A stretch of 44,866 nucleotides of DNA from a virus (Duplodnaviria > Heunggongvirae > Uroviricota > Caudoviricetes), in the IMG/VR virus record IMGVR_UViG_2579778842_000011, positions 1-44,866 of that record, one strand, 5' to 3'. The notes below the pieces were generated by a model. That model was given only the letters and a program-made list of their open reading frames with translations, made no database searches and was not told the origin of the DNA. The position numbers and the translations under genes are program-made. The stretch's first letter is position 1, and the number at the start of each line of letters is the position of its first letter. This document shows positions 7,859-44,043 of this stretch, piece by piece.

Positions 7859-8299
<441 letters not shown>

Positions 8300-8350
8300 C
8301 TAAAATTTTTATTCATCGAATCGTTTGATTGATTAGTGAGCGGTTGAACG

Positions 8351-8405
8351 AAAAAAGATGAAAAAACTTCGAAAAAATTTCAAAAAAGACTTGACAAAAT
8401 CAAAA
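8351..8405. repeat. Phased A-tract array (predicted intrinsically bent DNA)
   Basis: A6 tracts at 8351, 8361, 8372, 8382 plus A4 tracts at 8395 and 8402, i.e. about 10-11 bp periodicity. Confidence 0.6.
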
Positions 8406-8642
8406 GGTACTGTTCCACGGGTGAAATAAAGGGAGTTTTCGGCACCCCGGTTTTTGATGTGCGTGTGAGATTTCAAAACAGGTGCAGTGCAGCCCACCAG
8501 CGCGGTCGCTACGCGACTATTAACACCCGCTAATCCCTTTCCCCGCCTCGATCTTTCCCTTCGTTATAAAGCGTTTTAGGCGCTCTCCTGAATGCGCAGA
8601 TCAGATAAATAATTTTACGCAAATTTAATGGAGGATAACCGG

Positions 8643-9197
8643 ATGAAAGAAGAATTAACCCTTACAGAAATTTCCCGCTTATACGGCTATACAATTAACG
8701 CCGCTAAGAAATGGCAAGAACGAGGAATGCCATTTAACACCAATACCCGCCGCGTACCAGCCAAAGAGGGGACCGAGTGGGTATTAAAAAATATCATCAA
8801 CCCGCTTAAAGAAACTACTGTCAAAGAACAAATCGACGTAGAAAAATTACGCCGTGAGAGAGCATTAGCGGATGCAGCCGAACGAGAGAACCAGGAAGCA
8901 ATGAATCTCCTGATTCCCGTCGGTTATGTAGAACAGCAACTAGCGGAATATTGCGGGAAAGTGAAGCAGACTATTTTGCAGATCGCCACAATCGACGCTT
9001 TAGAAATTCTCGAATCTGCCACTGACCAGAAAACATTAAAGAATAAGCTAAGGGAGATTATCGAGCGTCGTTTAAATGAAGTAGGGGACTTGTTCGAAAA
9101 TGCAGATTTGGGAGAAGACGAGGAAGAAGAATTACCATTAATGGATGAACCGGAAGAACAAGAACCAGAAGAAGACGATGAATTTGATGTGTCTTAA
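8643..9197 (+). CDS. Nu1-like winged-helix DNA-binding protein (terminase small subunit or recombination directionality factor candidate)
   Basis: ATG 8643 with GGAGG RBS; LTLTEISRLYGYTINAAKKWQERGMPF and EKLRRERALADAA resemble recalled lambda Nu1 N-terminus; acidic C-terminal tail. Confidence 0.45.
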   Translation: MKEELTLTEISRLYGYTINAAKKWQERGMPFNTNTRRVPAKEGTEWVLKNIINPLKETTVKEQIDVEKLRRERALADAAERENQEAMNLLIPVGYVEQQLAEYCGKVKQTILQIATIDALEILESATDQKTLKNKLREIIERRLNEVGDLFENADLGEDEEEELPLMDEPEEQEPEEDDEFDVS

Positions 9198-9203
9198 AAC
9201 GCG

Positions 9204-9220
9204 TTATAAATAATAGTGAG
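9204..9220 (+). promoter_or_regulatory. Recurrent 17-mer TTATAAATAATAGTGAG (copy 1), putative promoter -10/operator element
   Basis: Same motif recurs at 11159-11175 (minus), 12437-12453 and as a variant at 41018-41036, each 35-90 nt upstream of a gene start. Confidence 0.4.
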
Positions 9221-9246
9221 AAAGATGTTGAACGGGTCAACGTCTA

Positions 9247-9275
9247 CGGGGGAGAACATCCCCCGCTTAACTTTT
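9247..9275 (+). terminator. Hairpin, possible weak terminator/attenuator
   Basis: CGGGGGA-GAACA-TCCCCCG stem-loop followed by CTTAACTTTT. Confidence 0.3.
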
Positions 9276-9291
9276 AAGAGGATATAAAACT

Positions 9292-9576
9292 ATGGCTACT
9301 TTTATTACCTATGCTGTCACCATTACTATTCTGGCTGCTATCTCTGCTTATAAACTCGGAACCGAACCGAAAGAACGAGGCGAATTATTCTTAGGTGCGT
9401 TTGTTGCATTTGCTAGCCTTGCGTTAATTGTCGAAGGAATTTCTTATATTGTTGGCCTAGTTAGTATGACACTTTTTAACTTCCATCCAACTATTGCTAT
9501 GCATTTGATGCTGACCGTACTTTGGGTATATTGCTTAATCGAATTTTTAACGTTTGTTTTCAAACAGACTAAATAA
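9292..9576 (+). CDS. Small membrane protein (three predicted hydrophobic helices)
   Basis: 94 aa; AGAGGA RBS 9 nt upstream; three hydrophobic segments. Confidence 0.5.
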   Translation: MATFITYAVTITILAAISAYKLGTEPKERGELFLGAFVAFASLALIVEGISYIVGLVSMTLFNFHPTIAMHLMLTVLWVYCLIEFLTFVFKQTK

Positions 9577-9840
9577 TATTGTAATCTGCCTTTTCTCCTT
9601 ATGTGGTTTTAACAGGGAGCTTTCGAAAGAGAGTTCCCGATTAAAAGCCATAAAACACATTCAGTACAGTGTTTTCATAGTCAGTGATCTATACAACATA
9701 AAAACATAACAAGTATAGATTGAGTATTAATCCTCCCGCCTCGAAAGGGGCGGTTATTTTTCTGGCTTTACTGGATAATGTAGCATTATGTTCATTATAA
9801 ATCCTCATCTTTGTTGTGCAAACCTAACCTAAACTTACTA

Positions 9841-9865
9841 GGGACTCTTCGGAGTCCCTTTTTTT
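9841..9865. terminator. Bidirectional rho-independent terminator between convergent transcription units
   Basis: GGGACTC-TTCG-GAGTCCC followed by T7 on plus strand; overlaps the stop codon of the minus-strand 313 aa gene. Confidence 0.7.
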
Positions 9866-10805
9866 ATTGGCAGTAAGAAAAGTTAGTACCGTACATTTCA
9901 TCATGAAGCATTGCAGCATTGCGTTTCTGTTCTTCTTCCTCATCTTCTACATCACTAGAAAAATGAGATTTGCCCTTAAAAGAACGAAGTAATTGCAGTG
10001 CAGCCATCGGATCACGCATCACATCGATTTTCACTTCTACTTCATCATTTGCGGCCTCATCAGCCGCGTTTTCAACTACTGCCACCGGAGCAACTTCTTT
10101 AGCTTTCAGTTCTTCAATCTCAGCTTTCTGTGCTTCGATGATCTGGTCTTTTTCTTTCAGTGCAGCTTTCAGTTCTGCGATCTGTGCTTCCAGTGCAGCA
10201 AAGCGATCTTCAACAACCGGAGAAACAGCATTCACCTGTGCTTCCAGTTCCAGAAATGCTTCGCAAGATTCAATACGTTCTTTCTCTTCACCTTCATAAG
10301 CAACCAGTTCTACAACTTCTTTTTCGGTAGCGTGGCTGTTAAAGAATACAGCAAAGTAAGGATTGCCGGATTTAGTGAAGTTCAGTTTAGCTTTTCCGGT
10401 AACTTCTTTACGACGACCAAAGGTGATCTGGCAATCAGCGGTATCCTGAAAATCCATGTTAGGAGCGGAAACGATAGCAGTATCACCAGCAATAACCAGG
10501 TGGAACAGTTCAGAAGAGTTCTTAACGGTAAAGGTAACGATGTGGTCTACTGCAACGTCTTTAGCAGGTTTAACGCGGTCGATTGCTTTACGAATGCCGT
10601 TAGGCAGTTTACCGTCAACACCAAAGCCAGCCGCGATCAGTGCTTCACGATGTGCTTTAAAGCCAGCGAAAGCGGATTTCTGCTGCGCAAAGGAAACATG
10701 AGCAACAACTTTCGGCTGAATCTTCTTGTTTGCTTCGGTGCCAAATTTGATAACTGCTTTAGCGTTGGTTACTTCGTTAGTGAAAAAGTTAGCGGAAAAT
10801 AACAT
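9864..10805 (-). CDS. Hypothetical protein with central coiled coil and acidic C-terminal tail
   Basis: 313 aa; strong AGGAG RBS; heptad-like EAQIAELKAALKEKDQIIEAQKAEIEELKAK segment; C-terminal DVEDEEEEQ. Confidence 0.5.
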   Translation of the reverse strand: MLFSANFFTNEVTNAKAVIKFGTEANKKIQPKVVAHVSFAQQKSAFAGFKAHREALIAAGFGVDGKLPNGIRKAIDRVKPAKDVAVDHIVTFTVKNSSELFHLVIAGDTAIVSAPNMDFQDTADCQITFGRRKEVTGKAKLNFTKSGNPYFAVFFNSHATEKEVVELVAYEGEEKERIESCEAFLELEAQVNAVSPVVEDRFAALEAQIAELKAALKEKDQIIEAQKAEIEELKAKEVAPVAVVENAADEAANDEVEVKIDVMRDPMAALQLLRSFKGKSHFSSDVEDEEEEQKRNAAMLHDEMYGTNFSYCQ

Positions 10806-10854
10806 ATAAATACTCCTGAATACTCTGTGTTAGTTTTAATGTTTCATATCAAAA

Positions 10855-10890
10855 GCCTCCTTGCGCCAACAGGGAGGCTTTTTTATTTTT
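10855..10890. terminator. Hairpin terminator between the two minus-strand genes
   Basis: GCCTCCTTG..CAGGGAGGC stem followed by TTTTTTATTTTT on plus strand, A-run on the other side. Confidence 0.5.
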
Positions 10891-10922
10891 AAAGCCATCA
10901 TATAATTCTCAGTGAAAGGTTA

Positions 10923-11105
10923 TTACCAGACCTCGGCGGTAATCTTTACTTTAATGTCATACTTCTTTAAGAGTTTGTGAAAGGTTGATTGATCAATACC
11001 TTCACCTTTAAACCATTCACCCATCACTACATCAGGTGTCAGTTCAAAATAACGCTTTGCCATTTCTAAAACGATTTCACGAGTGAACTTAACAGGTCGT
11101 GCCAT
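10923..11105 (-). CDS. Small DNA-binding protein with resolvase/Hin-type HTH-like motif
   Basis: 60 aa; AGGAGG RBS; RPVKFTRE...GIDQSTFHKLLKKYDIK pattern; paralogous to 14641..14865. Confidence 0.45.
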   Translation of the reverse strand: MARPVKFTREIVLEMAKRYFELTPDVVMGEWFKGEGIDQSTFHKLLKKYDIKVKITAEVW

Positions 11106-11158
11106 CTTGAATCCTCCTAAATCTGGATTAATGATTTCTTAAAAAAGAGCGTCAACCG

Positions 11159-11175
11159 CTCACTATTATTTATAT
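11159..11175 (-). promoter_or_regulatory. Recurrent 17-mer (copy 2, ATATAAATAATAGTGAG on minus strand) upstream of the 60-aa gene
   Basis: Followed by AGTGAGCGGTTGACG, which also occurs at 8335-8350 near the prophage junction. Confidence 0.4.
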
Positions 11176-11622
11176 GGGGATTGTATTTTATTTTTCAACC
11201 CCTCACATTTATCTCTTATATATGTATTTATAACAGAGATATGTTAAAATGTTATTCAGATGTTATCAGACGTGTTAAATGTGTTAAACCGCAGCACGAA
11301 TTGCTAAAGCGGAGAGCACGAATTAACCAAATTGATGTATATTCAATCAATTTAGAAAAAGGCATAGCACTTTTTGCTAAAGCGGTGAGCATTAATTGAG
11401 CTATGAATTGTAAAGATTTGTTACAAGATTTTCTCTCAGATCCAAATCTTCACAAACATATAACAATTTAACAGAAGGATAACAAATGAAAGGAAATCGG
11501 TAAATTTTCACTTTCAATACAAATATTATACCACATTTTTCTCGAATTGTCAATTATAGCACCGATCCTACACAGTGTCAACAAAGGATTTTCAAACCTA
11601 CACTAGCCCTACACTATGAAAA

Positions 11623-11808
11623 TTGCCCCTGAATTTTTGCCCCTGAACCAAAATCCCCTAGATTCCACATCCAATTTTTGCCCCTGAAACCCACTATTTT
11701 TGCCCCTGAAATTCTGGGAAACAGTGATTTTGCCCCTCATTTTTGCCCCTGAAATGCCAATAATTGCCCCTGAAAATCTAATTTTTGCCCCTGAAATTTG
11801 CCCCTGAA
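11623..11808 (+). repeat. Iteron-like array: 9 direct copies of TTGCCCCTGAA (8 exact, 1 variant)
   Basis: Copies at 11623, 11637, 11678, 11700, 11730 (variant TTGCCCCTCAT), 11743, 11764, 11785, 11798; all same orientation, irregular 13-41 bp spacing, within a 1.4 kb region lacking ORFs of 60 aa or more. Confidence 0.75.
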
Positions 11809-12436
11809 AAGGATTTGTGAGAAAAACTCTTTATAAAACATTAACTTAGTGAGTGGCAAAACGGGGAATCGGGCGTGCATAGATATTATATAACACATTC
11901 GCTACGCTCATGTGTAAAACCAAAAACAACAAATAACCAAAAAGATATTAGGAGGGCGTAGCCCGACTGCGCGAAGCGCTAACCAATTACTTCTAGTAAC
12001 ACTAATTTAAACTAGATGATACTAGATGGTCTTAGAAGGAATTAACTAGTTTGCTCGCTCGCTTCGCTCACTCTCAAACGTCTGCGACGCCACTGCGTGG
12101 CATCGAGAATCACTTCTGAAAGGATTTTCTTGAAAGGGATTTTAAACTAGTTACTAACTGATTCTAGAAAGATAGTAATAATCACTTTGAAGATAATAGT
12201 AGTTAACTGGTTACTAGATGATTCTAGATCACTTTAATGATCATGAAAGGTATTGGTATCCCTTCGGGATTGCAACCTTCGGTTGCTAAATTGCTTCCTG
12301 ATTATAATTTCTCCAAAAGAAAGATTCTTATATTCTAAAGATACTTCTTCGTTTTGATGATGATTTAATCAAAATCTATGAAGGAGGCGAAGCCGACTGA
12401 ATACCAATTCCTTTCAAATTAGACAAAAATTTCTCG

Positions 12437-12453
12437 TTATAAATAATAGTGAA
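12437..12453 (+). promoter_or_regulatory. Recurrent 17-mer (copy 3, TTATAAATAATAGTGAA) about 35 nt upstream of gene 12489
   Basis: Sequence identity to copies 1 and 2. Confidence 0.4.
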
Positions 12454-12488
12454 CTTACTTTGATTCACTTTTTTAGAGGATTTCCACT

Positions 12489-12941
12489 ATGATCAATACT
12501 AAAACTCCTTTCATTCTTCTGGGTCTGAACCATGATGATAATCTGGCTATGATGCATGTTTTCGCTAATCGTGGTTATAACATCATTCGTCATTCCGAAG
12601 ACTCCAATTTCTCAACTGCTTTCTATGCTCTTAAACGTAATGGTCGCCCTACGGTGATCGTAGACTGCTTTACTGATGAAGGTCGTGAACAATACAACAA
12701 CATTCCGGCAATTATTGTTCGTGATGACCTGCCGTTTGATGTTCGTGAATATGACGTTGATTTAGGCTCTTACTATGGGATCGCCGATCTTGACCAGATT
12801 ATGGCTGATTATGGTAAACAACCCGCTCAGGAAGCCCCAGAACGAGATGAACAAGACGAAGATGACGACGACTACACACCAATCTGTTTCTCTTCTCACG
12901 GTGGCTTCTACGGTTACGATGAAGGCTTAGATATGCTGTAA
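12489..12941 (+). CDS. Hypothetical acidic early protein
   Basis: 150 aa; AGAGGA RBS; C-terminal ERDEQDEDDDDY acidic run. Confidence 0.5.
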   Translation: MINTKTPFILLGLNHDDNLAMMHVFANRGYNIIRHSEDSNFSTAFYALKRNGRPTVIVDCFTDEGREQYNNIPAIIVRDDLPFDVREYDVDLGSYYGIADLDQIMADYGKQPAQEAPERDEQDEDDDDYTPICFSSHGGFYGYDEGLDML

Positions 12942-12963
12942 TTTAGGTCAACCCTTTGGCGTC

Positions 12964-13005
12964 TTGTCAAGGGGTATTGACAAAAATTTCTGACTTTTTT
13001 ATGAT
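12964..13005 (+). promoter_or_regulatory. Candidate sigma70 promoter with overlapping inverted repeat (operator-like)
   Basis: TTGACA 12977-12982, 17 bp spacer, TATGAT 13000-13005; inverted repeat TTGTCAA(12964)/TTGACAA(12977) overlaps the -35. Confidence 0.45.
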
Positions 13006-13061
13006 TATCTCACTTGACAATTTTGAACCTATTTGACCTAGATTTGTAAAGAGGATGTAAC

Positions 13062-13394
13062 ATGAAAGAATTTACCATCACTAAATCCCTGTATGACTGG
13101 ACTGTTAAAATCTCCGGCAAAACCGTTTCTGTAACCCCTAGCCATGTAGAAAATGATTGGGGCGTATCCCGTGAAACTATCTCCCGTAGTATGCATGTTC
13201 CGTTTGATCTGATGTCCTTAACTGGTATTCATGCAATGCTGGAAGTTCGCGAACAATTCGAAGCTGGTAATCACAATGCGACTCCAGTTAGCAATCACCT
13301 TCTTACTAATGAAGAACGTGAAATCATCGAAAACTGGCGTTATGAATATGCGATTCCTTATTATGAAGAAGACCAAGTAGAAATCGATTGGTAA
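13062..13394 (+). CDS. Hypothetical protein
   Basis: 110 aa; AGAGGA RBS. Confidence 0.5.
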   Translation: MKEFTITKSLYDWTVKISGKTVSVTPSHVENDWGVSRETISRSMHVPFDLMSLTGIHAMLEVREQFEAGNHNATPVSNHLLTNEEREIIENWRYEYAIPYYEEDQVEIDW

Positions 13395-13493
13395 TAAATT
13401 TCTATCATAAATAAAAATGTTCCGCGCGCCGTTGGCGTGTGGACAGTTAAAAACAGGAGGATCATCACTAAACCGTTTAAGGGGAATTTAATT

Positions 13494-14324
13494 ATGAATA
13501 CTGTTACTGCTATGAATACTGCTAAAACTGCTTCCGTGTCTCTGGTTGTTGATAACACCAAACCGCTGACCATGTCTTCCCGTCAGATCGCTGAATTTAC
13601 CGGAAAAGAACACCACAAAGTTAAAGTTGATATAACTAAGATGTTGAATGCTCTAGGTTATGAAGATCACGCGAAGTTTCGCGTCATCTATTTTGACCAA
13701 TACGGACGCGAACAAAACGAATATCAACTAGACGAAGAAATGACTCTGACTCTTGTCACTGGTTACGATGTTAAGCGTCGAATGGTTGTTATTCAGGAAT
13801 GGAAACGACTGAAAGAAGAAAATGAAAAACTGCGTTCTCAGCAAGTCAACCCATACGCAAACATGACTAAGCTCGATTGGATTCGTGAGGCAATGGAATT
13901 GGAAGCCGCAAACGAACAACTGATTCAAGAAAAGAAACAACTGGTTGAATTGCATGTTCGTAAAGCTATCGACACACACAGTCTTAGCCGCTTATTAGGC
14001 GAAAAACGAGGCTCTACGAAGGTACAAATTATTCTGAAAGGTTTATGTGCTGCTGGTGTTCTTGAGCGTCGTCTGGATGCTTCTGGTAAGCCTAAAGGCT
14101 ATGATCTGCTTCCTCCTGGCTATATGTTCGCTCGTATGTCGGCACACGGTCAGATCGAGTTCACTGCTGATGCTATCCCGCATCTCGTAAAACTCGGATT
14201 GCTCGAAGAAGAAAAGGCCGCAACTTTGAAATTGCCACAGCCGAATAACTCACGAGCAATCGTCAATAATACTGCTTTGCTGATTCGTCAGAATGCTGGA
14301 TCACTGGAACACTTCGGACTGTGA
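13494..14324 (+). CDS. Rha-family phage regulatory protein / antirepressor-like
   Basis: ATG 13494 after AAGGGG; N-terminal LTMSSRQIAEFTGKEHHKVKVDITKML resembles the Phage_pRha domain; the track start at 13437 is a GTG without RBS. Confidence 0.55.
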   Translation: MNTVTAMNTAKTASVSLVVDNTKPLTMSSRQIAEFTGKEHHKVKVDITKMLNALGYEDHAKFRVIYFDQYGREQNEYQLDEEMTLTLVTGYDVKRRMVVIQEWKRLKEENEKLRSQQVNPYANMTKLDWIREAMELEAANEQLIQEKKQLVELHVRKAIDTHSLSRLLGEKRGSTKVQIILKGLCAAGVLERRLDASGKPKGYDLLPPGYMFARMSAHGQIEFTADAIPHLVKLGLLEEEKAATLKLPQPNNSRAIVNNTALLIRQNAGSLEHFGL

Positions 14325-14332
14325 TAATTTTT

Positions 14333-14356
14333 GCCCCTGAATTTCAGGGGCTTTTT
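14333..14356 (+). terminator. Rho-independent terminator built from the iteron motif
   Basis: GCCCCTGAA-T-TTCAGGGGC perfect inverted repeat followed by TTTTT. Confidence 0.75.
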
Positions 14357-14395
14357 GTATCTGGAGTTTTTCGCCGAAAACCTGCAATACAGAAT

Positions 14396-14598
14396 TTCGA
14401 AAGAATCAATAGGTTAGAGATGAGCGCAGTTTTGCGCCGATTGATTCAAGTTTGAATTTCTCGAAAGAATCAACCACTTAGATAGATACGCTGAACTTTA
14501 AGCACATCCCCTCAGTTTTGAGGGCATCTATAGATCAGTCCAAATCTCTGGACTCATCGGAAGAATCAATGACTTATAGATGAGCGCAGTTTTGCGCG
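14396..14598. repeat. Three dispersed copies of an approximately 40-bp unit with embedded small hairpins
   Basis: Units start 14396, 14459, 14556 (TCGAAAGAATCAA...TTAGAGATGAGCGCAGTTTTGCGC); hairpins GCGCA-GTTTT-GCGC, CCCTCA-GTTT-TGAGGG, AGTCCA..TGGACT, ATTCAA-GT-TTGAAT. Confidence 0.6.
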
Positions 14599-14603
14599 GA
14601 TAT

Positions 14604-14633
14604 AAAAAAAAGGCCAACCCCGAAGGATTGGCC
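14604..14633 (-). terminator. Rho-independent terminator for the minus-strand operon ending at 14641
   Basis: On minus strand GGCCAATCC-TTCG-GGGTTGGCC followed by T8. Confidence 0.75.
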
Positions 14634-14640
14634 TAGAGAA

Positions 14641-14865
14641 TCAAATTCCTGTTGCTTCTACCATTTCACCGTCAACCTGAACAAAGAATTTCAAATCAAC
14701 TTTATGGAGTGATTTGTAGAATTGAGCGATTGAAATACCGTGTTCACTCAATACTTGCTCTTTTTCGGCTTTACCTTTCGGTGCTTGATAGTACGCTTTT
14801 ACAATCGCTGCCAGTTGTTCACGATCAAAACGGCAAGGACGACCGCGAGTAGCTTTAGTAGTCAT
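14641..14865 (-). CDS. Small DNA-binding protein, paralog of 10923..11105
   Basis: Second ATG (14865) has GGAG at good spacing; TRGRPCRFDREQLAAIVKAYYQ and GISIAQFYKSLHKVDLK align with the 60-aa protein. Confidence 0.45.
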   Translation of the reverse strand: MTTKATRGRPCRFDREQLAAIVKAYYQAPKGKAEKEQVLSEHGISIAQFYKSLHKVDLKFFVQVDGEMVEATGI

Positions 14866-14899
14866 AGTCATTTCTCCAAATTAAAGTGAATGTTCACCT

Positions 14900-15502
14900 T
14901 TATTTAGAGGACTTACATTTTATCGGAAAAAGTTCTCCATCGTCAACCGACATAAAGAACTCTGCCTTAATCCCGTACTTCTTCAACCGTGAATAGTATG
15001 TACCCCGACTTATATCAACCTTGCGAAGCACTTCAAAGAACCCTTTAGGATCGTTGTAATAGTGGCTATAACGCACGTTAGCGAGTTCAACGAATAGTTC
15101 CCTTGTATCACCATAGCCTTTCTTGAAAGCCTCGTTACGATAGCGTGTAATTGCGTGATTCAATCTCTTCTGTTTCAACACTTCCCTGATCGGTGTCCAC
15201 TGCAACCGATAGATCGGACCGTCATCAATGCGATAATAACGCTTGATATCAAAATCAAACCAATCTCGGACTCTCCGAAACTCTGTATGTGATGTTCTAT
15301 GCTTCTTAAAGAAGTTGTGAACGTCTGTATAACCATTATCGCGGTAAAACTCTATTAAAATCTCTTTCGCTTCCTCACGACTAAAGCCAGATGTAGTGTA
15401 GTCGGTTTTTAAATGCTTATGCTTAACTGGCAAACGATATTCATGATCGGTACAAGACAAGGCTAATTCTAATTCATCTCTTTGTTGCTGATTAATTAGC
15501 AT
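14900..15502 (-). CDS. Hypothetical protein with C-terminal HTH-like motif shared with the two small paralogs
   Basis: 200 aa; AAAGGGGG RBS; C-terminal DISRGTYYSRLKKYGIK. Confidence 0.45.
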   Translation of the reverse strand: MLINQQQRDELELALSCTDHEYRLPVKHKHLKTDYTTSGFSREEAKEILIEFYRDNGYTDVHNFFKKHRTSHTEFRRVRDWFDFDIKRYYRIDDGPIYRLQWTPIREVLKQKRLNHAITRYRNEAFKKGYGDTRELFVELANVRYSHYYNDPKGFFEVLRKVDISRGTYYSRLKKYGIKAEFFMSVDDGELFPIKCKSSK

Positions 15503-15587
15503 ACAACCCCCTTTAATTAATACCCGTATTTATCAAAATATCAACAATTTAATAAATACCTTCATATTTCGTAATGAGGGTAATTAC

Positions 15588-17492
15588 ATGAAACTGATTT
15601 CAAATAAGGCCAAATTAAAAAAGATTCTCAGAAATATCTCTGCTGCAATTCGCCCACCTAAAGCCATGAAGCCTAGCGAATGGGTAGAGGCTAATGTAGT
15701 TGCAACCGATGGTGTTAAAGCCGGATCGCTAATTAAATTGCATCCCTTCCAACGTGGAATGATGGACGCGATCACCGAAGACCGTAGAAAAATTGTGTTT
15801 AAATGTTCGGCACAGTTGGGTAAGACCATGATTCTTAACGGAATTATCTTCCATCGGATCGCGAGTAACCCTACTAATATTGGGGTCTTGCAAAGTAACG
15901 TTAGGGAACTAAATTCTTGGATCGCTGGTAAGGTGAAGCCAGTATTAGAGGCAACGCCAGAATTAAAAGCGATGATCACCGACAAATCAGACCGTAATGC
16001 TGTTAACAACTCATCGATTATTCAGCTTCGTAATGGATCATTCATGTATTTCATGTCGCTGAACAGTCCATCACACTTGCGCGGTAAGACACTCCCTTTG
16101 ATTATTCTTGATGAAGTTGATGCGGCTGATGAATCAGACGAAGGGAACCCGATCCAGCTAGCGGAACAACGCGCAACCACTTTCGGGGAAGATGCAAGGA
16201 TCGTAATTGCTTCCACTCCAACCGCTCGTGATGGGGCGATTAACCAACAATGGGAACTCTCGGATAAGAGAAAATATCATGTCGTTTGCCAGCATTGCGG
16301 ACACAAGCACGTAATGGAATGGAGTAACGTACATTTCGATTGGCATACGATTAACGGTAAATCATTACCCAACCCAGATACAGCCGTTTACCGTTGCCCT
16401 GAATGTGAAACCGATTGGACCGAAGGGGATCGCCTCCGTGCTGTTGCTCAGGGAGAATGGGTCGCCACCGAACCAAATGCGGAAGTAATCGGTTTTCATG
16501 CTAACCGCCTTATGTCTCCGTTTAGTTCTATCCGTGCGTGTGTGGTGGACTTTGCTGATAGCTACGCGAATATGTCCCTGGCAACGTTCTACAATACAGT
16601 CCTCGGTGAAACCTTCGATGATCTTAACGAAGATCGCACAGCCGACGAACTGGAAACGCTGAAAACTGATATTAGCCTAGACAATATTCCTGATGATGTA
16701 CTGGCTCTGGTAGGTGGAGTTGACCAGCAAAAAGACCGTCTGGAATCTACCTTGCTGGGTATTTCTCGTAAAGGGCTATGCGTAGTTGATCACCGATCAT
16801 TCTATGATGTGAACTGCGAACGCCACGAATCACCAGCATATAACCAGCTTTACAACTTCCTGAAAGCTAAATTCTATACCCGATCCGGTGAACGAATCCC
16901 GATGTTATCTGCTTTCGTGGACTCATCGAACGGACGAGCTACAAACGTGATCTATCGATTCTGTAGTCGGTGGCAAAATCTAACCGCCATTAAAGGCGCA
17001 AGCAATGTTGATGCACCAATCCTTCCGGTAAAAGACACAAGAACGGGTGGTTTTACCCTTAAAATTCTGGGCGTAAACAACCTTAAAACGATGATCCGTG
17101 AAATGATTAACCGGAACTTGAGAGATGGCGATCCTCACACTGTCTTCCAGATTGGTGACGTTCCTGATGACTATTGCGAGCAATTGCTTTCTGAACAGTT
17201 GAAACGGCAGGGTAATACCACACGTTGGGTAAAAGTTGGACAAACACGAAACGAAGCGTTGGACTGCCTGGCTTATTCCTATGCTGCTTCTCGTCATGTA
17301 CTCAATAAAATGTCATGGGAAAAACTCGAAGCCATCAAAGATAGTTTGAACCGTGAACCAGAAGAATCCGTAGAAGCTCCTAAATCGCAATCTAACGAGC
17401 AAATCGAAGAAACTAAGCCAATCACACGACCACAACGTAAAAACATCGCCAGACGCCCAAATAGAGGCCGTAGCTGGGTAACATCGTTCTAA
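15588..17492 (+). CDS. Terminase large subunit (lambda GpA family)
   Basis: 634 aa; Walker-type segments; C-terminal WVKVGQTRNEALDCLAYSYAA resembles recalled lambda gpA RNEALDCFVYALAA. Confidence 0.85.
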   Translation: MKLISNKAKLKKILRNISAAIRPPKAMKPSEWVEANVVATDGVKAGSLIKLHPFQRGMMDAITEDRRKIVFKCSAQLGKTMILNGIIFHRIASNPTNIGVLQSNVRELNSWIAGKVKPVLEATPELKAMITDKSDRNAVNNSSIIQLRNGSFMYFMSLNSPSHLRGKTLPLIILDEVDAADESDEGNPIQLAEQRATTFGEDARIVIASTPTARDGAINQQWELSDKRKYHVVCQHCGHKHVMEWSNVHFDWHTINGKSLPNPDTAVYRCPECETDWTEGDRLRAVAQGEWVATEPNAEVIGFHANRLMSPFSSIRACVVDFADSYANMSLATFYNTVLGETFDDLNEDRTADELETLKTDISLDNIPDDVLALVGGVDQQKDRLESTLLGISRKGLCVVDHRSFYDVNCERHESPAYNQLYNFLKAKFYTRSGERIPMLSAFVDSSNGRATNVIYRFCSRWQNLTAIKGASNVDAPILPVKDTRTGGFTLKILGVNNLKTMIREMINRNLRDGDPHTVFQIGDVPDDYCEQLLSEQLKRQGNTTRWVKVGQTRNEALDCLAYSYAASRHVLNKMSWEKLEAIKDSLNREPEESVEAPKSQSNEQIEETKPITRPQRKNIARRPNRGRSWVTSF

Positions 17493-21780: not shown

Positions 21781-22071
21781 ATGTTCAAATTATCAGAATC
21801 ACAATTATCAAGAATGTTTAAAAGTGCTCCTGTATTTTCGGTGGAAGGTGGTAAATCAATTCGTGCTTATCATGAAATTACTACTACCGACGAACAAGGG
21901 GTAATGACAGAGACAGAATTTTTATTTTGTCGTGAGGGAGACTTAAAGCAGGGTGATATTGTCATTGTAGAAAATCAGCGTTTCAAAGTTCAATACGTTA
22001 AGCGCAATGGTGACAATACAACTGATTGCTTTATCACTCTGGCAGGGGGTACACATGCTCGCTACCGTTAA
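21781..22071 (+). CDS. Putative head completion / head-tail adaptor protein
   Basis: 96 aa; AAGGGGGG RBS; position after capsid gene. Confidence 0.4.
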   Translation: MFKLSESQLSRMFKSAPVFSVEGGKSIRAYHEITTTDEQGVMTETEFLFCREGDLKQGDIVIVENQRFKVQYVKRNGDNTTDCFITLAGGTHARYR

Positions 22072-22477
22072 TAACATGCCGAGACTGAAAATCAAACGCG
22101 CCTTGCAAGATATTATCGAACAAGATTTAGGTCTGGCTTTAAACGTAGAACAAACTCAGCAAGGCTTTAGTGATGATGTGGTTTGTTGGATCACCGGAAT
22201 GAATGAGACTTACACTAGGGTCCGTGGTGGTAATGCAATGCAAGCTGAATGCGTTATCGAAATGCAATTATATTCTCAGATTCATGAAACCAAAATTCAT
22301 GAGGGTATTTGCCAGATAATCCAGATTCAGCCGGATAACCCACGTTTTAAAGATTTGGGCTTCTCTATTTCAGATATCACTCCAGTAGCTTCTAATACCG
22401 ATTATGACGATGATTCTAGTGATGGGGGTATCGTTGGGACACTTAGCCTTAAATTTTCTTATCTAGCGCGTTTTTAA
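22055..22477 (+). CDS. Putative head-tail joining protein
   Basis: ORF 22007..22477; ATG 22055 has GGGGG 5 nt upstream; overlaps end of previous gene; start uncertain (alternative 22076). Confidence 0.35.
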   Translation: MLATVNNMPRLKIKRALQDIIEQDLGLALNVEQTQQGFSDDVVCWITGMNETYTRVRGGNAMQAECVIEMQLYSQIHETKIHEGICQIIQIQPDNPRFKDLGFSISDITPVASNTDYDDDSSDGGIVGTLSLKFSYLARF

Positions 22478-38835: not shown

Positions 38836-40326
38836 TTATATAGCAATGGTTTTAGTTGCATAGCTGAACTTGTCGGTTAGATAATAGCGGATTCTCTCAA
38901 GTGCATGTTTTACCGCATAATTTTTATGCTTGACTTTTCCGTTACGACCGAATATACACAGATGATCTATAAGATCCCAGACCGTTGCAATATCCTTAGA
39001 ACCATGTTTACGCAATGCACGACCGATACTCTGACGAACGATAGTTGATTCCTTCACTGGATGACCGAAAATAACATGGTGCAAATTCTTAATTGAAACA
39101 CCAGTAGAGAACACACCATAGGATGCAACACAAATGATCCCTGTTTCCCCTTCCGCTAATTTCTTAAATTCATCACGTTCTTCTGTCTTAACTCCACCGT
39201 CAATATAATAAACCTTGTCGTGTACCTTCTGTAACGCATCATACATAAGTTTTCCGTGCTTAGTATTGCGGAACATCAGGAATACGTTTTCGCCCTTCTT
39301 AGCGAGTTTTAGCGCCAAATTACAAGCAAACTTATTTCGTCGTGGGTTAGACGTAATATACTTGATCTCTTCCGCATATTCCCGCCCCTTAACCGCGCTA
39401 CATTCCTCATCGGTATAACGAAGGAAAAGGCAGTTAATTTTCAGTTTTGTCACTTGACCTTCTTCCATCAGGCGGTCAATACTCACGATCTTAGAAATAT
39501 CACCGAAAAGCCCGACGTACTGCATTAAATGGCACTTTGATTCTTTCGGGGAACCAGTCATACCGATTTTGAACTGGCAATGATTCATTCCGTTAATGAT
39601 ATTGGTAATATTTTTGGCACTAGCCTTATGTGATTCATCAACTATCAACATTCCATATTGTTTGAACCATTCAGGAGGCATCTTGCAAGCTGATTGCCAG
39701 GTACTAACCGTGATTAACCTGTCTCCCGGATGTTTCCCGCTACCACTCATCATTGTATGAATTGCTTCATAAGGGAATAGCCTATAATCGACAAAATCAT
39801 CCCTCATTTGAACCACCAGCGATGTAGTAGGGACAATGATTAGAACTTTTCCGGTGTAGTTCTCTAAGTACCAACGAGACAGCATACAAGCAATCAATGA
39901 CTTACCCGCACTGGTAGGAAGAACCAGCATTCTACGGCGATTATGAATACCCTGAAAGACTGCCTCCCTTTGATACCAGTAAGGATTGATTTTATTGGAA
40001 CCGGAATACACTTCTAGGGAATCAATCCATTCATTAATCGCGTCTTTGGTTACATCTTCCTTCTCAAGCAATCTGGGGTCAATCCAGACTGAATAGCCCA
40101 TATTTTTAACGAAGACACCCAACGTTTTTAATAGTCCAATTGGTAGGGTGTTTTCATGCGTAAACAGTCTTATTCGTCCATCCCAGCCAGAATACTTGTA
40201 ACGGGGGCTAAACCTAGCCCCTTCAACCTCAAACGAGAAATAATCTCTTAATTCCATTCCGATAGAAGGAGAGCAATCAACCTTAACGAAACTGTAATCT
40301 TGAAAATGAATTTTAATATCTTGCAT
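38836..40326 (-). CDS. SF2 DExH helicase, T4 UvsW-like
   Basis: ATG at 40326 overlapping upstream stop (TAATG); N-terminus MQDIKIHFQDYSFVKVDC and whole length resemble recalled T4 UvsW; motifs LPTSAGKSL, DESH, QSIGRALRKHG. Confidence 0.8.
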   Translation of the reverse strand: MQDIKIHFQDYSFVKVDCSPSIGMELRDYFSFEVEGARFSPRYKYSGWDGRIRLFTHENTLPIGLLKTLGVFVKNMGYSVWIDPRLLEKEDVTKDAINEWIDSLEVYSGSNKINPYWYQREAVFQGIHNRRRMLVLPTSAGKSLIACMLSRWYLENYTGKVLIIVPTTSLVVQMRDDFVDYRLFPYEAIHTMMSGSGKHPGDRLITVSTWQSACKMPPEWFKQYGMLIVDESHKASAKNITNIINGMNHCQFKIGMTGSPKESKCHLMQYVGLFGDISKIVSIDRLMEEGQVTKLKINCLFLRYTDEECSAVKGREYAEEIKYITSNPRRNKFACNLALKLAKKGENVFLMFRNTKHGKLMYDALQKVHDKVYYIDGGVKTEERDEFKKLAEGETGIICVASYGVFSTGVSIKNLHHVIFGHPVKESTIVRQSIGRALRKHGSKDIATVWDLIDHLCIFGRNGKVKHKNYAVKHALERIRYYLTDKFSYATKTIAI

Positions 40327-40895
40327 TAGTTCCACTCCACACTTGCAATATTCTTTATATTGTTTAGTGATTTATTGCAGTAGTGGAATGTTTCAGTTTT
40401 GCCGTATTCAATCCCGCCTATACCCACATCCAGTAATCTCTTTATTGCTCTTTCAGTGGCTAAAGCATGTTTCATTGATGGCATTTCACCAGCAAAGACA
40501 ATATCAAAGTTATGACCGGGATTGCGTACACCCAGATTAATGCGTCGCTTGATGATTGACTTTGTTACACCAAATTTACCAATATCCCCTGATTTCATTA
40601 CATAGAGATAAGGCACACCCGCTTTATATTGAAAGTAATCACTTTTGAGACATGCACAGCGTTTACCTTCATTAAGCAGGTTGGTAGCTGATTTGTCGGC
40701 TCTATTGCCGCATCGGGTACATGTAAGAGCAATTCTTGAATGAAGCCCTTTAAACTCACCCAGAAAGCCATGAAAGACTAATGGTAAGTCCTTATCTTTG
40801 ATGTGAGTCAGAATGCGTTGTTCTAATGCCGATGGAGTTACAGCACGGGAGGATTTAGGAGTAAAAACAATATCTTTAGCCATTACTGGAATCAT
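40326..40895 (-). CDS. Zinc-ribbon + T5orf172/GIY-YIG-like domain protein
   Basis: 189 aa; GAGG RBS; CTRCGN...CAC Cys cluster; YLYVMKSGDIGKFGVTK...R...E pattern. Confidence 0.5.
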   Translation of the reverse strand: MIPVMAKDIVFTPKSSRAVTPSALEQRILTHIKDKDLPLVFHGFLGEFKGLHSRIALTCTRCGNRADKSATNLLNEGKRCACLKSDYFQYKAGVPYLYVMKSGDIGKFGVTKSIIKRRINLGVRNPGHNFDIVFAGEMPSMKHALATERAIKRLLDVGIGGIEYGKTETFHYCNKSLNNIKNIASVEWN

Positions 40896-41017
40896 ATAGA
40901 CCTCACTTTTTTAACTTATAGGCATAACCTCAATATGGTTGGTTTGGGATTTAGGGTCGCGTATTATACACATTCAGATAGAGAATGCAATAGTAAGACA
41001 ATTTTCTCTAATAAATA

Positions 41018-41036
41018 GTAGTGAGCTTATTATTTT
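41018..41036 (+). promoter_or_regulatory. Variant copy of the recurrent 17-mer (TAATAAATAGTAGTGAGC) upstream of gene 41050
   Basis: Similarity to the copies at 9204, 11159 and 12437. Confidence 0.3.
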
Positions 41037-41049
41037 AGAGGAAACTACT

Positions 41050-42225
41050 ATGAAACTTGCTTACGCTGCCGAAATTCCTTTTGTTAAGAAAACTCGCGGT
41101 TTATCACCGGAAGAGTACCAACAACGAATCATCGCTAAACTGGAACCTGCTTTCGTATTTGGTGGATTTATCCTACCGTGGAAGGGTAATCACACTTACT
41201 TTCGAATCTACAATTTAGACACACAAGAATATAAGGACTACAAATTACGCAAACTGGAAGATACTAACGGGGGTGAGTTATTCCAGACTGAAAAGGCTGT
41301 ATGGTTGAAAATGGAATCTCGTTGTAATGAGAAGGGAAAGAAATTCCTCGGATGGCAAGGAGAATGGAAAGGGCGAAATAGAACGAAAGCCCGTGTTTTG
41401 TGCCCTGAACACAATCAAATCATGACGCCATCTCTATTACATGCTCTCAAAGATGATTTCGATTTTGATTGCAAAATCTGTATGGCTGAAAAATCCCAAC
41501 GGGTAAGAAGTGGCAAGACTTTTGATGAAGTTATTAAGGACAAAGAGACAATCATCAATGCACGTTGCGAGAGTACGCCTTACACCTTCAAAGGATTCAT
41601 CATAAACACCCCACACCTAAAGGATGTTAAATTTAAAACCTATTGCAAGACACATAACCACGAATGGGAATCTCATTTAAGATGTGCTGATTCTTTCACT
41701 TGTCCGCTTTGCATTAAAGACCAACTGGTGCAACTGTCTAACCGGACTTATCAGGGTAAGGCTAGTTTCTACATTCAATTATTAGATGACAAATTTATTA
41801 AATTTGGAATCACTACCCGGAAACCAGAAGAACGAATGAGAGAGCAAACCAGAAAGAGCAACTTCACTCACCGCTTAATCTTTACTCATGAGTTTGAGGA
41901 TGGTTGGAAAGCCGTTGATTTAGAGCATGAAGTAAAACAACGCTTCAAGACTCATGCAGCACCCTACAAAGATTTCAAGGATGGATGGTCGGAAACTCTG
42001 ACTATTGATGAGTTACCACACTTACAGCAACTGGTTTATGACTACCTAACCAATCAACCGGACGAGGCTAATATGTGGGTATCCCCGAAAGATGTATTTG
42101 ATGACGATACATTCAAGCTACATACTCACTTCTACGGCATCAATAAACCGGAATTTTTCTGTATTGATGACGACAGTCCTGATTTAATGGATGAATACTT
42201 TAATACGCTCTTAGACGCTGCCTAA
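41050..42225 (+). CDS. Paralogous protein with two Cys/His zinc-ribbon modules and C-terminal T5orf172/GIY-YIG-like domain
   Basis: ATG 41050 after AGAGGA (track ORF begins upstream without RBS); CPEHN...CKIC and CKTHNHEW...CPLC; FYIQLLDDKFIKFGITTRK. Confidence 0.45.
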   Translation: MKLAYAAEIPFVKKTRGLSPEEYQQRIIAKLEPAFVFGGFILPWKGNHTYFRIYNLDTQEYKDYKLRKLEDTNGGELFQTEKAVWLKMESRCNEKGKKFLGWQGEWKGRNRTKARVLCPEHNQIMTPSLLHALKDDFDFDCKICMAEKSQRVRSGKTFDEVIKDKETIINARCESTPYTFKGFIINTPHLKDVKFKTYCKTHNHEWESHLRCADSFTCPLCIKDQLVQLSNRTYQGKASFYIQLLDDKFIKFGITTRKPEERMREQTRKSNFTHRLIFTHEFEDGWKAVDLEHEVKQRFKTHAAPYKDFKDGWSETLTIDELPHLQQLVYDYLTNQPDEANMWVSPKDVFDDDTFKLHTHFYGINKPEFFCIDDDSPDLMDEYFNTLLDAA

Positions 42226-43978: not shown

Positions 43979-44043
43979 ACCATTTCCAAACAAAAACGCC
44001 CCTACCGTGTATTATAACGATAGGGGCATTGGTTAGTAAGTCA

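What the first reader, a model, noticed from the sequence alone, without database searches (positions are those of the whole stretch)
10923..15502. Family of small proteins with resolvase-type HTH-like motif: two stand-alone paralogs plus the C-terminus of a 200-aa protein
The 60-aa (10923..11105) and 74-aa (14641..14865) proteins align over both an N-terminal (G/A)RPxKFxRE...K.Y segment and a C-terminal GIxxxxFxKxLxKxD(I/L)K segment. The 200-aa protein (14900..15502) ends with a similar DISRGTYYSRLKKYGIK. All three are transcribed away from structural or early operons and flank the iteron region and the terminase. They are candidates for the iteron or 17-mer binding proteins, a split small terminase, or recombination directionality factors for the serine integrase.
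Basis: seen in the sequence. Interest (0 to 1): 0.45.

Follow-up and report, generated by a model that had tools for sequence, protein, structure and literature searches.

The report
Paralogous small HTH proteins in prophage
Three unannotated genes of an E. coli prophage carry four copies of one small DNA-binding (helix-turn-helix) module; they are probably regulators linked to the phage's DNA-repeat (iteron) control region, and are not the repeat-specific binder or the small terminase.

Summary
p60 (10923-11105), p74 (14641-14865) and BOTH halves of p200 (14900-15502) share a ~60-aa module: basic GRPxxF arm, three helices, then a beta-hairpin. Profile-profile E-values are 2.5e-11 to 2e-5. Each family's HMM picks only the other two proteins out of 543 six-frame segments of the window.

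The module is closest to the HTH_Tnp_1 / HTH_23 / HTH_7 group, but scores below every Pfam cut-off. No Pfam, PHROG or NCBIfam family claims it.

- Iteron sequence tracks the ~313-aa protein encoded after p60 in 29 of 29 loci, not any HTH paralog.
- A Nu1-like small terminase lies elsewhere, at 8628-9197.
- p200/p74 are absent beside TerL in an Edwardsiella relative. There they sit between the iterons and p60.
- A p60 homolog, with its own iterons and a homolog of the downstream protein, occurs in a T4-like phage. This argues against a role in excision for p60.

Best reading (inferred): these are sequence-specific transcription regulators of an iteron-centred cassette. p60 would be the operon's conserved autoregulator or cofactor, and p200/p74 accessory paralogs. 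It is a new subfamily of a known fold, of moderate interest.

The parts
10923..11105 (-). p60: one HTH module (arm ARPVKF, three helices, short beta strand); first gene of the p60-p313 operon
   Evidence: ORF. Family A3 of 15 sequences, recognition helix EGIDxSTFHKLLKKY nearly invariant. Present in all relatives and in a T4-like contig.
14641..14865 (-). p74: one HTH module plus a C-terminal beta-hairpin
   Evidence: ORF. Family A2. AlphaFold2 pLDDT 74, H15-27, H32-42, H46-55, E61-64, E67-70.
15203..15397 (-). p200 N-terminal module (residues ~36-100)
   Evidence: hhalign to A2 and A3, E 3e-9 to 1e-7. AlphaFold2 H42-56, H61-67, H72-82, E86-92, E97-99.
14918..15121 (-). p200 C-terminal module (residues ~128-195)
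   Evidence: hhalign E 3e-8 to 1e-7. AlphaFold2 H134-147, H152-161, H166-175, E180-186.
14900..15502 (-). p200 whole CDS: low-confidence N-terminus followed by two tandem modules
15503..15587 (.). Divergent p200/TerL control region. It carries the inverted arms GTATTTAT / ATAAATAC, i.e. two divergent (A/G)ATAAATAC promoter-like motifs, and TTGATA-16-TATTAA pointing towards p200
   Evidence: Sequence. Nearly invariant in 34 relatives even where TerL is only 58% identical.
14611..14634 (-). Intrinsic terminator ending the p200-p74 unit
   Evidence: 10-bp stem followed by T8. It co-varies with the p74 allele.
11619..11810 (+). Iteron array, about 9 copies of TTTTTGCCCCTGAA at 21/22/42-bp spacing
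   Evidence: The class co-varies with p313, not with the HTH proteins.
11525..11581 (-). Two tandem perfect sigma-70 promoters (TTGACA-17-TATAAT, each with TG) pointing towards p60
   Evidence: A strong promoter is conserved at this position in relatives, often with an inverted repeat over the -35 hexamer.
11106..11524 (-). About 415-nt leader. It contains TTATAAATA (11225-11233), the exact 15-mer TATAAATAATAGTGA (11160-11174) and a hairpin plus T-run (11147-11161) just before the p60 ribosome-binding site
9864..10805 (-). p313: variable N-domain, coiled coil and acidic tail. It is the inferred iteron-specificity protein and is co-transcribed after p60
8628..9197 (+). Probable small terminase (Nu1-like). 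It is relevant because it removes the need for p74/p200 as TerS
   Evidence: phrog_57 E 2e-15 over the full length. The ortholog has faint Phage_Nu1 and weak DUF1441 hits. Present in all relatives.
15588..17492 (+). Large terminase, gpA type (context)
   Evidence: Pfam GpA_ATPase 5e-62 and GpA_nuclease 5e-46.

Best explanation
p60, p74 and p200 form a lineage-specific family of sequence-specific DNA-binding proteins. They are built from one module: a basic minor-groove arm (GRPxxF), a tri-helical helix-turn-helix of the IS3-OrfA / HTH_Tnp_1 type, and a C-terminal beta-hairpin 'wing'. p200 carries two modules in tandem. They belong to the phage's iteron-centred control cassette. The universal unit is [iteron array]-[strong sigma-70 promoter(s)]-[leader]-p60-[~200-380-aa protein whose N-domain matches the iteron class]. 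I infer that p60 is the conserved, specificity-independent partner in this unit. Most likely it is a small autoregulator or cofactor of the operon, using the logic of a small repressor gene placed before an initiator gene downstream of iterons and a promoter, as in pMV158 copG-repB. I infer that p200/p74 are duplicated paralogs acting as accessory regulators. In Edwardsiella they lie inside the cassette (iterons->p200->p74->p60). In E. coli they have moved to a self-contained promoter-to-terminator unit that diverges from the late (TerL) operon. Shown: the paralogy, the predicted fold, the synteny and the co-variation pattern. Inferred: DNA binding, the regulatory role and the targets.
Confidence: 0.45

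Rival explanations
1. They are activators or specificity factors for the phage's own promoter motif TTATAAATA(C), which resembles the T4 late promoter TATAAATA. This motif sits 30-45 nt upstream of p60, p150, the 94-aa ORF, Rha, p200, TerL and two tail-region ORFs.
For: The motif is exact three times as the 15-mer TATAAATAATAGTGA (10 matches at up to 3 mismatches against 2.1 expected). Its core is conserved upstream of p60 in every relative, and (A/G)ATAAATAC occurs upstream of p200 and TerL. The conserved recognition helices fit a conserved target. A p60 homolog lives in a T4-like phage.
Against: TTATAAATA at up to 1 mismatch is not enriched overall (28 found against 20 expected). In the T4-like cassette the box before p60 is an ordinary TATAAT. 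Only p60 is universal. There is no similarity to gp55, gp33 or any sigma factor. The motif may simply be a -10-like element read by the host polymerase.
Confidence: 0.2
2. p74 and/or p200 are recombination directionality factors (Xis-like) for the large serine integrase at 42299-43993.
For: They are small, basic, HTH-plus-wing proteins, as many excisionases are. The Edwardsiella p74 ortholog has a weak HTH_17 hit (E 0.034). The prophage has a serine recombinase and no recognisable RDF.
Against: The paralog p60 occurs in a T4-like phage with no integrase in the 13.6 kb examined. p74 is absent from a Salmonella relative. p200/p74 sit with the iteron cassette in Edwardsiella. No test against integrase alleles was possible.
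Confidence: 0.08
3. p200/p74 are a (split) small terminase or a packaging-site recognition factor for the gpA-type TerL.
For: They lie immediately upstream of TerL. The GRPxxF arm plus HTH resembles the N-terminal DNA-binding domain of Sf6/P22-type small terminases (my own recollection). Pfam Sf6_terminase appears among the sub-hits of multi-HTH relatives.
Against: The orientation is divergent from TerL. There is no TerS family hit. A full-length phrog_57 / Nu1-like TerS exists at 8628-9197 in all relatives. TerL alleles of 58% and 98% identity combine freely with p200 at >=87%. In Edwardsiella, Rha and not p200 abuts TerL. No oligomerisation core is predicted.
Confidence: 0.04
4. One of them is the iteron-binding protein.
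For: p60 lies about 500 bp from the iterons. In Edwardsiella the iteron array runs into the p200 start codon.
Against: Three iteron classes in 29 E. coli-type loci match the three clusters of the downstream ~313-333-aa protein exactly (for the p313 class, 15/15 against 0/14, Fisher p 1.3e-8). p60 lies between the iterons and that gene, yet its alleles cross the iteron classes; p74 alleles also cross them, and p200 is >=87% identical throughout.
Confidence: 0.05
5. The p200-p74 unit is a moron: a self-contained promoter-to-terminator unit expressed from the prophage that acts on other phages (superinfection immunity) or on host genes, not on the prophage's own cycle.
For: It has its own promoter-like region and a strong terminator, and its orientation is opposite to its neighbours. 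It is absent or relocated in some relatives. It sits in a highly mosaic region.
Against: It is physically linked with the cassette in Edwardsiella. The p200/TerL intergenic region is strongly conserved. No defence-family search was run (PADLOC was not queried).
Confidence: 0.1

Closest known systems
Pfam HTH_Tnp_1 (PF01527; IS3-family OrfA N-terminal HTH) and the neighbouring HTH_23 / HTH_28 / HTH_7 families of the HTH clan
   Same: A basic N-terminal arm (R-P-x-x-F/Y-x-x-E), three helices, and a turn motif G-(I/V)-S-x-x-T/Q-(F/L)-Y. The module profile hits a genuine IS3-type OrfA (P0110, E 9.6e-4 library-wide; Pfam 59 bits) and multi-HTH_Tnp_1 proteins.
   Different: Scores are below the gathering cut-off (12.9 and 15.6 bits against 24.1). 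There is no transposase or recombinase partner. There is an extra conserved C-terminal beta-hairpin. The module occurs stand-alone or as a tandem pair.
pMV158-type copG-repB arrangement: a small repressor gene before the initiator gene, downstream of iterons and the operon promoter (from my own knowledge of that plasmid, not tested here)
   Same: The order iterons, promoter, small DNA-binding protein, larger protein whose specificity matches the iterons.
   Different: CopG is a ribbon-helix-helix protein, whereas p60 is an HTH. p313-like proteins show no Rep or HUH signature. There is a long leader with a terminator. Replication function is unproven.
T4 oriE region: a cluster of 12-nt iterons, an early sigma-70 promoter, and the small genes repEA/repEB (review PMC3016281)
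   Same: Iterons, an early-type promoter and small ORFs in a phage. The homologous cassette found here in a T4-like contig lies in the same late-gene neighbourhood (genes 3-2-4-53-5).
   Different: RepEA and RepEB are 50- and 45-aa ORFs antisense to gene 5. tblastn of the T4-like contig's p60 homolog and its 204-aa neighbour against 50,697 phage records, including T4, found nothing.
Winged-helix excisionases (HTH_17 / Xis type)
   Same: Small, basic, an HTH followed by a beta-hairpin wing, and phage-encoded.
   Different: There are three helices plus an N-terminal arm instead of two helices. Only a weak sub-threshold hit in one ortholog. The context is not next to the integrase.

Membership tests
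Pfam HTH_Tnp_1 (PF01527) | Whole-protein score at or above the gathering cut-off (24.1 bits) | tested here: not met
   p74 scores 12.9 bits, E 0.13. The Edwardsiella p74 ortholog scores 15.6 bits, E 0.019. p60 and p200 have no hit.
Pfam HTH_Tnp_1 (PF01527) | Tri-helical HTH with an N-terminal basic arm | tested here: met
Pfam HTH_Tnp_1 (PF01527) | Profile-level similarity to bona fide members | tested here: met
   The module profile hits P0110 (E 9.6e-4) and P0092 (E 1.2e-10). These score 59 and 184 bits on PF01527. Multi-repeat hits accumulate score, so this support is moderate.
Pfam HTH_Tnp_1 (PF01527) | Genetic association with a DDE transposase (OrfB) | tested here: not met
   No transposase domain was found in the flanking ORFs scanned. 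The neighbours are phage genes.
Resolvase HTH_7 (PF02796) | HTH fused C-terminally to a serine-recombinase catalytic domain, and Pfam cut-off reached | tested here: not met
   The proteins are stand-alone at 60, 74 and 200 aa. There is no HTH_7 hit for the window proteins, and 14.9 bits against a cut-off of 23.8 for one ortholog.
Small terminase (Nu1 / phrog_57 or Sf6 / P22 type) | Homology to a TerS family | tested here: not met
   There are no TerS hits in Pfam, PHROGs or NCBIfam. By contrast 8628-9197 hits phrog_57 at 2e-15.
Small terminase (Nu1 / phrog_57 or Sf6 / P22 type) | Conserved position next to and co-oriented with TerL | tested here: not met
   The genes diverge from TerL in E. 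coli. They are not adjacent to TerL in Edwardsiella.
Small terminase (Nu1 / phrog_57 or Sf6 / P22 type) | Oligomerisation core after the DNA-binding domain | tested here: not met
   The p200 model is two HTH modules and a disordered N-terminus. No central helical or beta-barrel core is predicted.
Recombination directionality factor for a serine integrase | Co-occurrence with, and dependence on, the integrase | tested here: inconclusive
   A p60 homolog occurs in a T4-like contig with no integrase in the 13.6 kb examined. For p74/p200, integrase alleles were not available in the fetched loci.
Recombination directionality factor for a serine integrase | Binding to the integrase or to att DNA, and stimulation of excision | not testable with these tools
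   This needs biochemistry or multimer structure prediction.
Iteron-binding initiator or centromere-binding protein | Protein specificity region co-varies with the iteron sequence | tested here: not met
   Iteron classes follow the clusters of the downstream p313-like protein (29/29 loci). The HTH alleles do not follow them.
CopG-like operon autorepressor (functional analogy only) | Small DNA-binding gene placed first in an operon with the iteron-specific protein, downstream of iterons and a promoter | tested here: met
   This gene order is seen in all eight lineages examined.
CopG-like operon autorepressor (functional analogy only) | Ribbon-helix-helix fold and demonstrated operator binding | tested here: not met
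   The predicted fold is an HTH, not RHH. Operator binding cannot be tested here.

The most novel reading that the evidence does not exclude
The unit [iterons - strong early promoter - p60-type HTH - protein with an exchangeable iteron-matched N-domain] is a previously undescribed mobile cassette. It moves between temperate lambda-like prophages of Enterobacterales and lytic T4-like myoviruses. p60 is its invariant, specificity-independent core component, and p74/p200 are lineage-specific duplications of it. It could be a portable replication-origin, DNA-segregation or transcription-control module.
Probability: 0.3. Interest if true: 0.6.

Novelty: new member of a known kind. Interest (0 to 1): 0.35.

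Why it matters
These are the only predicted DNA-binding proteins (apart from Rha and a weak HTH in the 110-aa ORF) found among the proteins scanned in the early/control region of a widespread but unstudied E. coli/Salmonella prophage lineage. Sixty-three of 5,426 complete E. coli genomes carry it, inserted in ycdX, and none of the ORFs scanned matched a CI/Cro-type repressor or replication-initiator family. Knowing what they bind would open up the lysogeny and replication control of this lineage. The co-variation result also assigns the iterons to a different, equally unknown protein family. It further reveals that the p60-iteron unit is shared with a T4-like phage, which gives a concrete, testable case of regulatory-cassette exchange between temperate and virulent phages.

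Tried and rejected
- Pfam, PHROGs and NCBIfam on the three proteins gave nothing above threshold. The weak UPF0175, POTRA, PA0613 and TOM70 hits were ignored as noise.
- PDB sequence search with p200 found only Protein G noise.
- Phage nucleotide search and tblastn with p200, the T4-like contig's p60 homolog and its 204-aa neighbour found no isolated phage carrying them.
- Rfam on 8000-16000 gave nothing credible.
- I considered the repeats at 14397-14601 as a cos/pac site bound by p74. This was rejected because they occur in only 3 of 34 relatives.
- I tried co-variation of TerL alleles with TerS or p200 as a test for TerS. It was uninformative, because neither tracks TerL.
- A k-mer association scan for distal sites that co-vary with p60 or p74 alleles found none outside the genes themselves.
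- T4 RepEA/RepEB were examined as possible homologs. They are 45-50-aa antisense ORFs with no detectable sequence similarity.
- A literature search for a ycdX prophage found nothing relevant.
- p313-like proteins searched against the PDB and Pfam gave only coiled-coil matches. The two N-domain classes are not detectably homologous.
Full report
SETTING. The window is E. coli chromosome (ghrA and a truncated ycdX, 1-~8300) followed by a ~36-kb prophage inserted in ycdX. The prophage encodes a gpA-type large terminase (15588-17492), a lambda-type portal and a protease-capsid fusion. It also encodes a Rha-family regulator (13437-14324), a UvsW-like helicase and a large serine recombinase (42299-43993). 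Related prophages occur in 63 of 5,426 complete E. coli genomes. In these, every gene of the region except TerL and Rha is annotated 'hypothetical'. No isolated phage in the phage collection resembles the region at the nucleotide level.

OBSERVATION. For p74, homologs and the Shine-Dalgarno spacing favour the 74-aa start at 14865.
It also shows a second, weaker match of both small proteins to residues ~40-93 of p200.
- I collected the three families: 42, 26 and 19 homologs, all from Enterobacterales and none with an informative name. I aligned them as A1-A3.
- Profile-profile comparison gives p74 family vs p60 family 97% probability, E 2.5e-11.
- Each small family aligns to both the N-module (~36-100) and the C-module (~128-195) of p200, with E between 3e-9 and 1e-7. 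The two halves of p200 align to each other at E 2e-5.
- As a chance control, HMMs built from one family at a time were run against all 543 stop-to-stop segments of the window in six frames. Each returned only the other two proteins (E 9e-9 to 6e-3), and the next segment scored E >= 0.09. No fifth copy exists.

WHAT THE MODULE IS. AlphaFold2 models of p200 (pLDDT 77) and p74 (pLDDT 74) give the same layout for every module: an extended basic arm, three helices, then a beta-hairpin.
- Direct family scans give only sub-threshold hits: HTH_Tnp_1 at 12.9 bits for p74, and 15.6 bits for its Edwardsiella ortholog, which also has weak HTH_7, HTH_17 and HTH_23 hits.
- A profile of the module searched against 1.8 billion representative proteins found 27 hits at E <= 1e-3. 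Beyond family members these include proteins with 3-7 tandem HTH repeats and a single-domain IS3-type OrfA (P0110). Pfam assigns these confidently to HTH_Tnp_1, HTH_23, HTH_28 and HTH_7.
- One p60 homolog is even named 'Transposase' in UniRef.
- Within each family the helix-2/turn/helix-3 segment is the most conserved part: EHGISIAQFYK in p74, EGIDxSTFHKLLKKY in p60, VDISRGTYY in p200-C.
The nearest family is HTH_Tnp_1, but formal membership is not met and the C-terminal hairpin is an addition.

WHO BINDS THE ITERONS. I fetched 33 related viral contigs plus Salmonella, Proteus, Edwardsiella and metagenomic relatives. The region is highly mosaic.
- Among the 29 E. coli-type loci that include the p60 region there are three iteron classes: TTTTTGCCCCTGAA, AGTGTAGGTTT and ACGGGGA-type. 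These coincide exactly with the three sequence clusters of the ~313-333-aa protein encoded after p60, at 15, 12 and 2 loci. For the first class the split is 15/15 against 0/14, Fisher p 1.3e-8.
- More distant relatives each have their own iteron and their own version of this protein.
- p60 lies physically between the iterons and that gene, yet its three allele groups (>=95%, 80-86%, 54-60%) cross all iteron classes. p74 alleles also cross them, and p200 is >=87% identical throughout.
- A k-mer association scan found no distal DNA that co-varies with p60 or p74 alleles.
The iteron-specificity determinant is therefore the p313-like protein (an inference from co-variation), not the HTH family.

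NOT THE SMALL TERMINASE. The 189-aa ORF at 8628-9197 matches phrog_57 'terminase small subunit' over its full length (E 2e-15). Its Edwardsiella ortholog carries faint Phage_Nu1 and weak DUF1441 hits. It is present in every relative. p200/p74 diverge from TerL and have no TerS signature. In Edwardsiella, TerL is flanked by Rha instead, and a Salmonella relative lacks p74 altogether.

CONTEXT THAT POINTS TO FUNCTION.
(1) The unit iterons -> strong sigma-70 promoter -> leader -> p60 -> p313-like protein is universal. In the window, two tandem 12/12 consensus promoters lie at 11525-11581 on the minus strand, right beside the iterons. In several relatives the -35 hexamer is half of a perfect inverted repeat, such as TTGACAACTGTCAA or GTTGACAGCAGGTCAAC. 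This is a candidate operator, but it is not universal.
(2) The same unit occurs in a 168-kb T4-like contig between T4 genes 3 and 2. It has iterons (TAGCGATTAC), a promoter, a 64-aa p60 homolog and a 204-aa homolog of the class II p313-like N-domain (BLASTP E 2e-15 to the Proteus protein). The cassette is thus portable and independent of integration.
(3) In Edwardsiella tarda the order is iterons -> p200 (split into two ORFs) -> p74 ortholog (HMM E 2e-10) -> leader -> p60 -> 377-aa protein, all co-oriented. The last iteron overlaps the p200 start codon. All paralogs are therefore physically tied to the iteron cassette in at least one lineage. In E. coli, p200-p74 forms its own unit with a conserved divergent control region (15503-15587) and a strong terminator (14611-14634).

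MECHANISM (INFERRED). The module most likely binds DNA through helix 3 in the major groove. The GRP arm would lie in the minor groove, and the hairpin would act as a wing or a dimer contact. p60, with an invariant recognition helix regardless of iteron class, is best explained as a conserved regulator or cofactor of the cassette operon. The logic is that of a small repressor gene preceding an initiator gene (copG-repB-like), but with an HTH fold. p200 (two modules on one chain) and p74 would be accessory regulators of the same circuitry and, in E. coli, of the divergent p200/TerL promoters. A serious alternative is that they recognise the TTATAAATA(C) promoter-like motif. This motif precedes p60 in all relatives and precedes many operons here, and it resembles the T4 late promoter. 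The RDF role cannot be excluded for p74/p200, but it is disfavoured for p60.

COMPARISON AND NOVELTY. The family is an unannotated, lineage-restricted offshoot of the HTH_Tnp_1-like group, so it is a new member of a known kind. What is less ordinary lies around it: an exchangeable iteron and N-domain pairing with a constant small HTH partner, shared between temperate and T4-like phages. Similarity to T4 oriE (iterons, an early promoter and small rep genes; PMC3016281) is only organisational. RepEA and RepEB are 45-50-aa antisense ORFs, and tblastn of the T4-like contig's p60 homolog and 204-aa protein against the phage collection, which includes T4, found nothing.

LIMITS. No binding site has been demonstrated, fold-search scores are weak, and the role of the cassette (origin, partition or regulation) is unknown. 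The mechanism is a best guess (confidence ~0.45), although the HTH assignment itself is much firmer.

Noticed in passing
9205-9219 (+), 11160-11174 (-), 12438-12452 (+); also 11225-11233 (-), 13405, 15527, 15550, 28132, 31310: The exact 15-mer TATAAATAATAGTGA occurs three times. Each copy is followed by a hairpin plus T-run and then the ribosome-binding site of a gene (the 94-aa ORF, p60, the 150-aa ORF). The core TTATAAATA(C) lies 30-45 nt upstream of many operons and is conserved before p60 in all relatives. It looks like the T4 late promoter TATAAATA, yet no gp55-like factor was found.
   Followed up: partly
12299-12382: About 80 nt are ~80-85% identical to unannotated intergenic DNA of RB49-group T4-like phages (Krischvirus). 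This may be a PeSL-type promoter/stem-loop cassette (PMC2839356).
   Followed up: partly
11525-11581 (-) and 11106-11524: Two tandem perfect sigma-70 promoters (12/12, each with TG) feed a ~415-nt leader that ends in a terminator-like hairpin just before p60. This could be an abundant non-coding RNA or an attenuated leader. A conserved CTTTAGCAATTCGTGCT motif lies inside it (11293-11309 and 11366-11382).
   Followed up: partly
9864-10805 (-) and homologs in L002-L047: p313-like proteins have exchangeable N-domains (at least two classes with no detectable homology), then a coiled coil and an acidic tail. Each cluster is paired with its own iteron sequence. They match no known family.
   Followed up: partly
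8628-9197 (+) vs 15588-17492 (+): The Nu1-like small terminase gene is 6.4 kb away from the large terminase gene, separated by the whole control region. TerL occurs as two ~58%-identical alleles that reassort among otherwise >90% identical prophages.
   Followed up: partly
14397-14601: Three TCGAAAGAATCAA repeats and two GAGCGCAGTTTTGCGC repeats lie between Rha and p74. They occur in only 3 of 34 relatives, so they are a variable insert and not a conserved site. The iteron-like copy at 14328-14351 is a palindromic terminator found irrespective of iteron class.
   Followed up: yes
L042/L047 (Edwardsiella tarda relative), 10543-12174 of L047: A reverse-transcriptase + TIR gene (a probable defence gene) sits next to the TerS gene at the prophage end. 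p200 is split into two ORFs there.
   Followed up: no
22242-22332 (-): ARAGORN calls a 91-nt tRNA-Gln on the minus strand inside the + strand ORF 22007-22477, in the structural-gene block. This is probably a false positive.
   Followed up: no
38836-42225: A UvsW-like helicase and two CapR-domain / GIY-YIG-like (phrog_681 'endonuclease') genes lie next to the serine recombinase. Together with the TATAAATA motifs and the RB49-like segment, this prophage shows several T4-flavoured features.
   Followed up: no
12376-12420 (+): The stretch ATGAAGGAGGCGAAGCCGACTGAATACC... is conserved in E. coli and Salmonella relatives. It could be a 14-codon mini-ORF or an RNA motif upstream of the 150-aa gene.
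   Followed up: no
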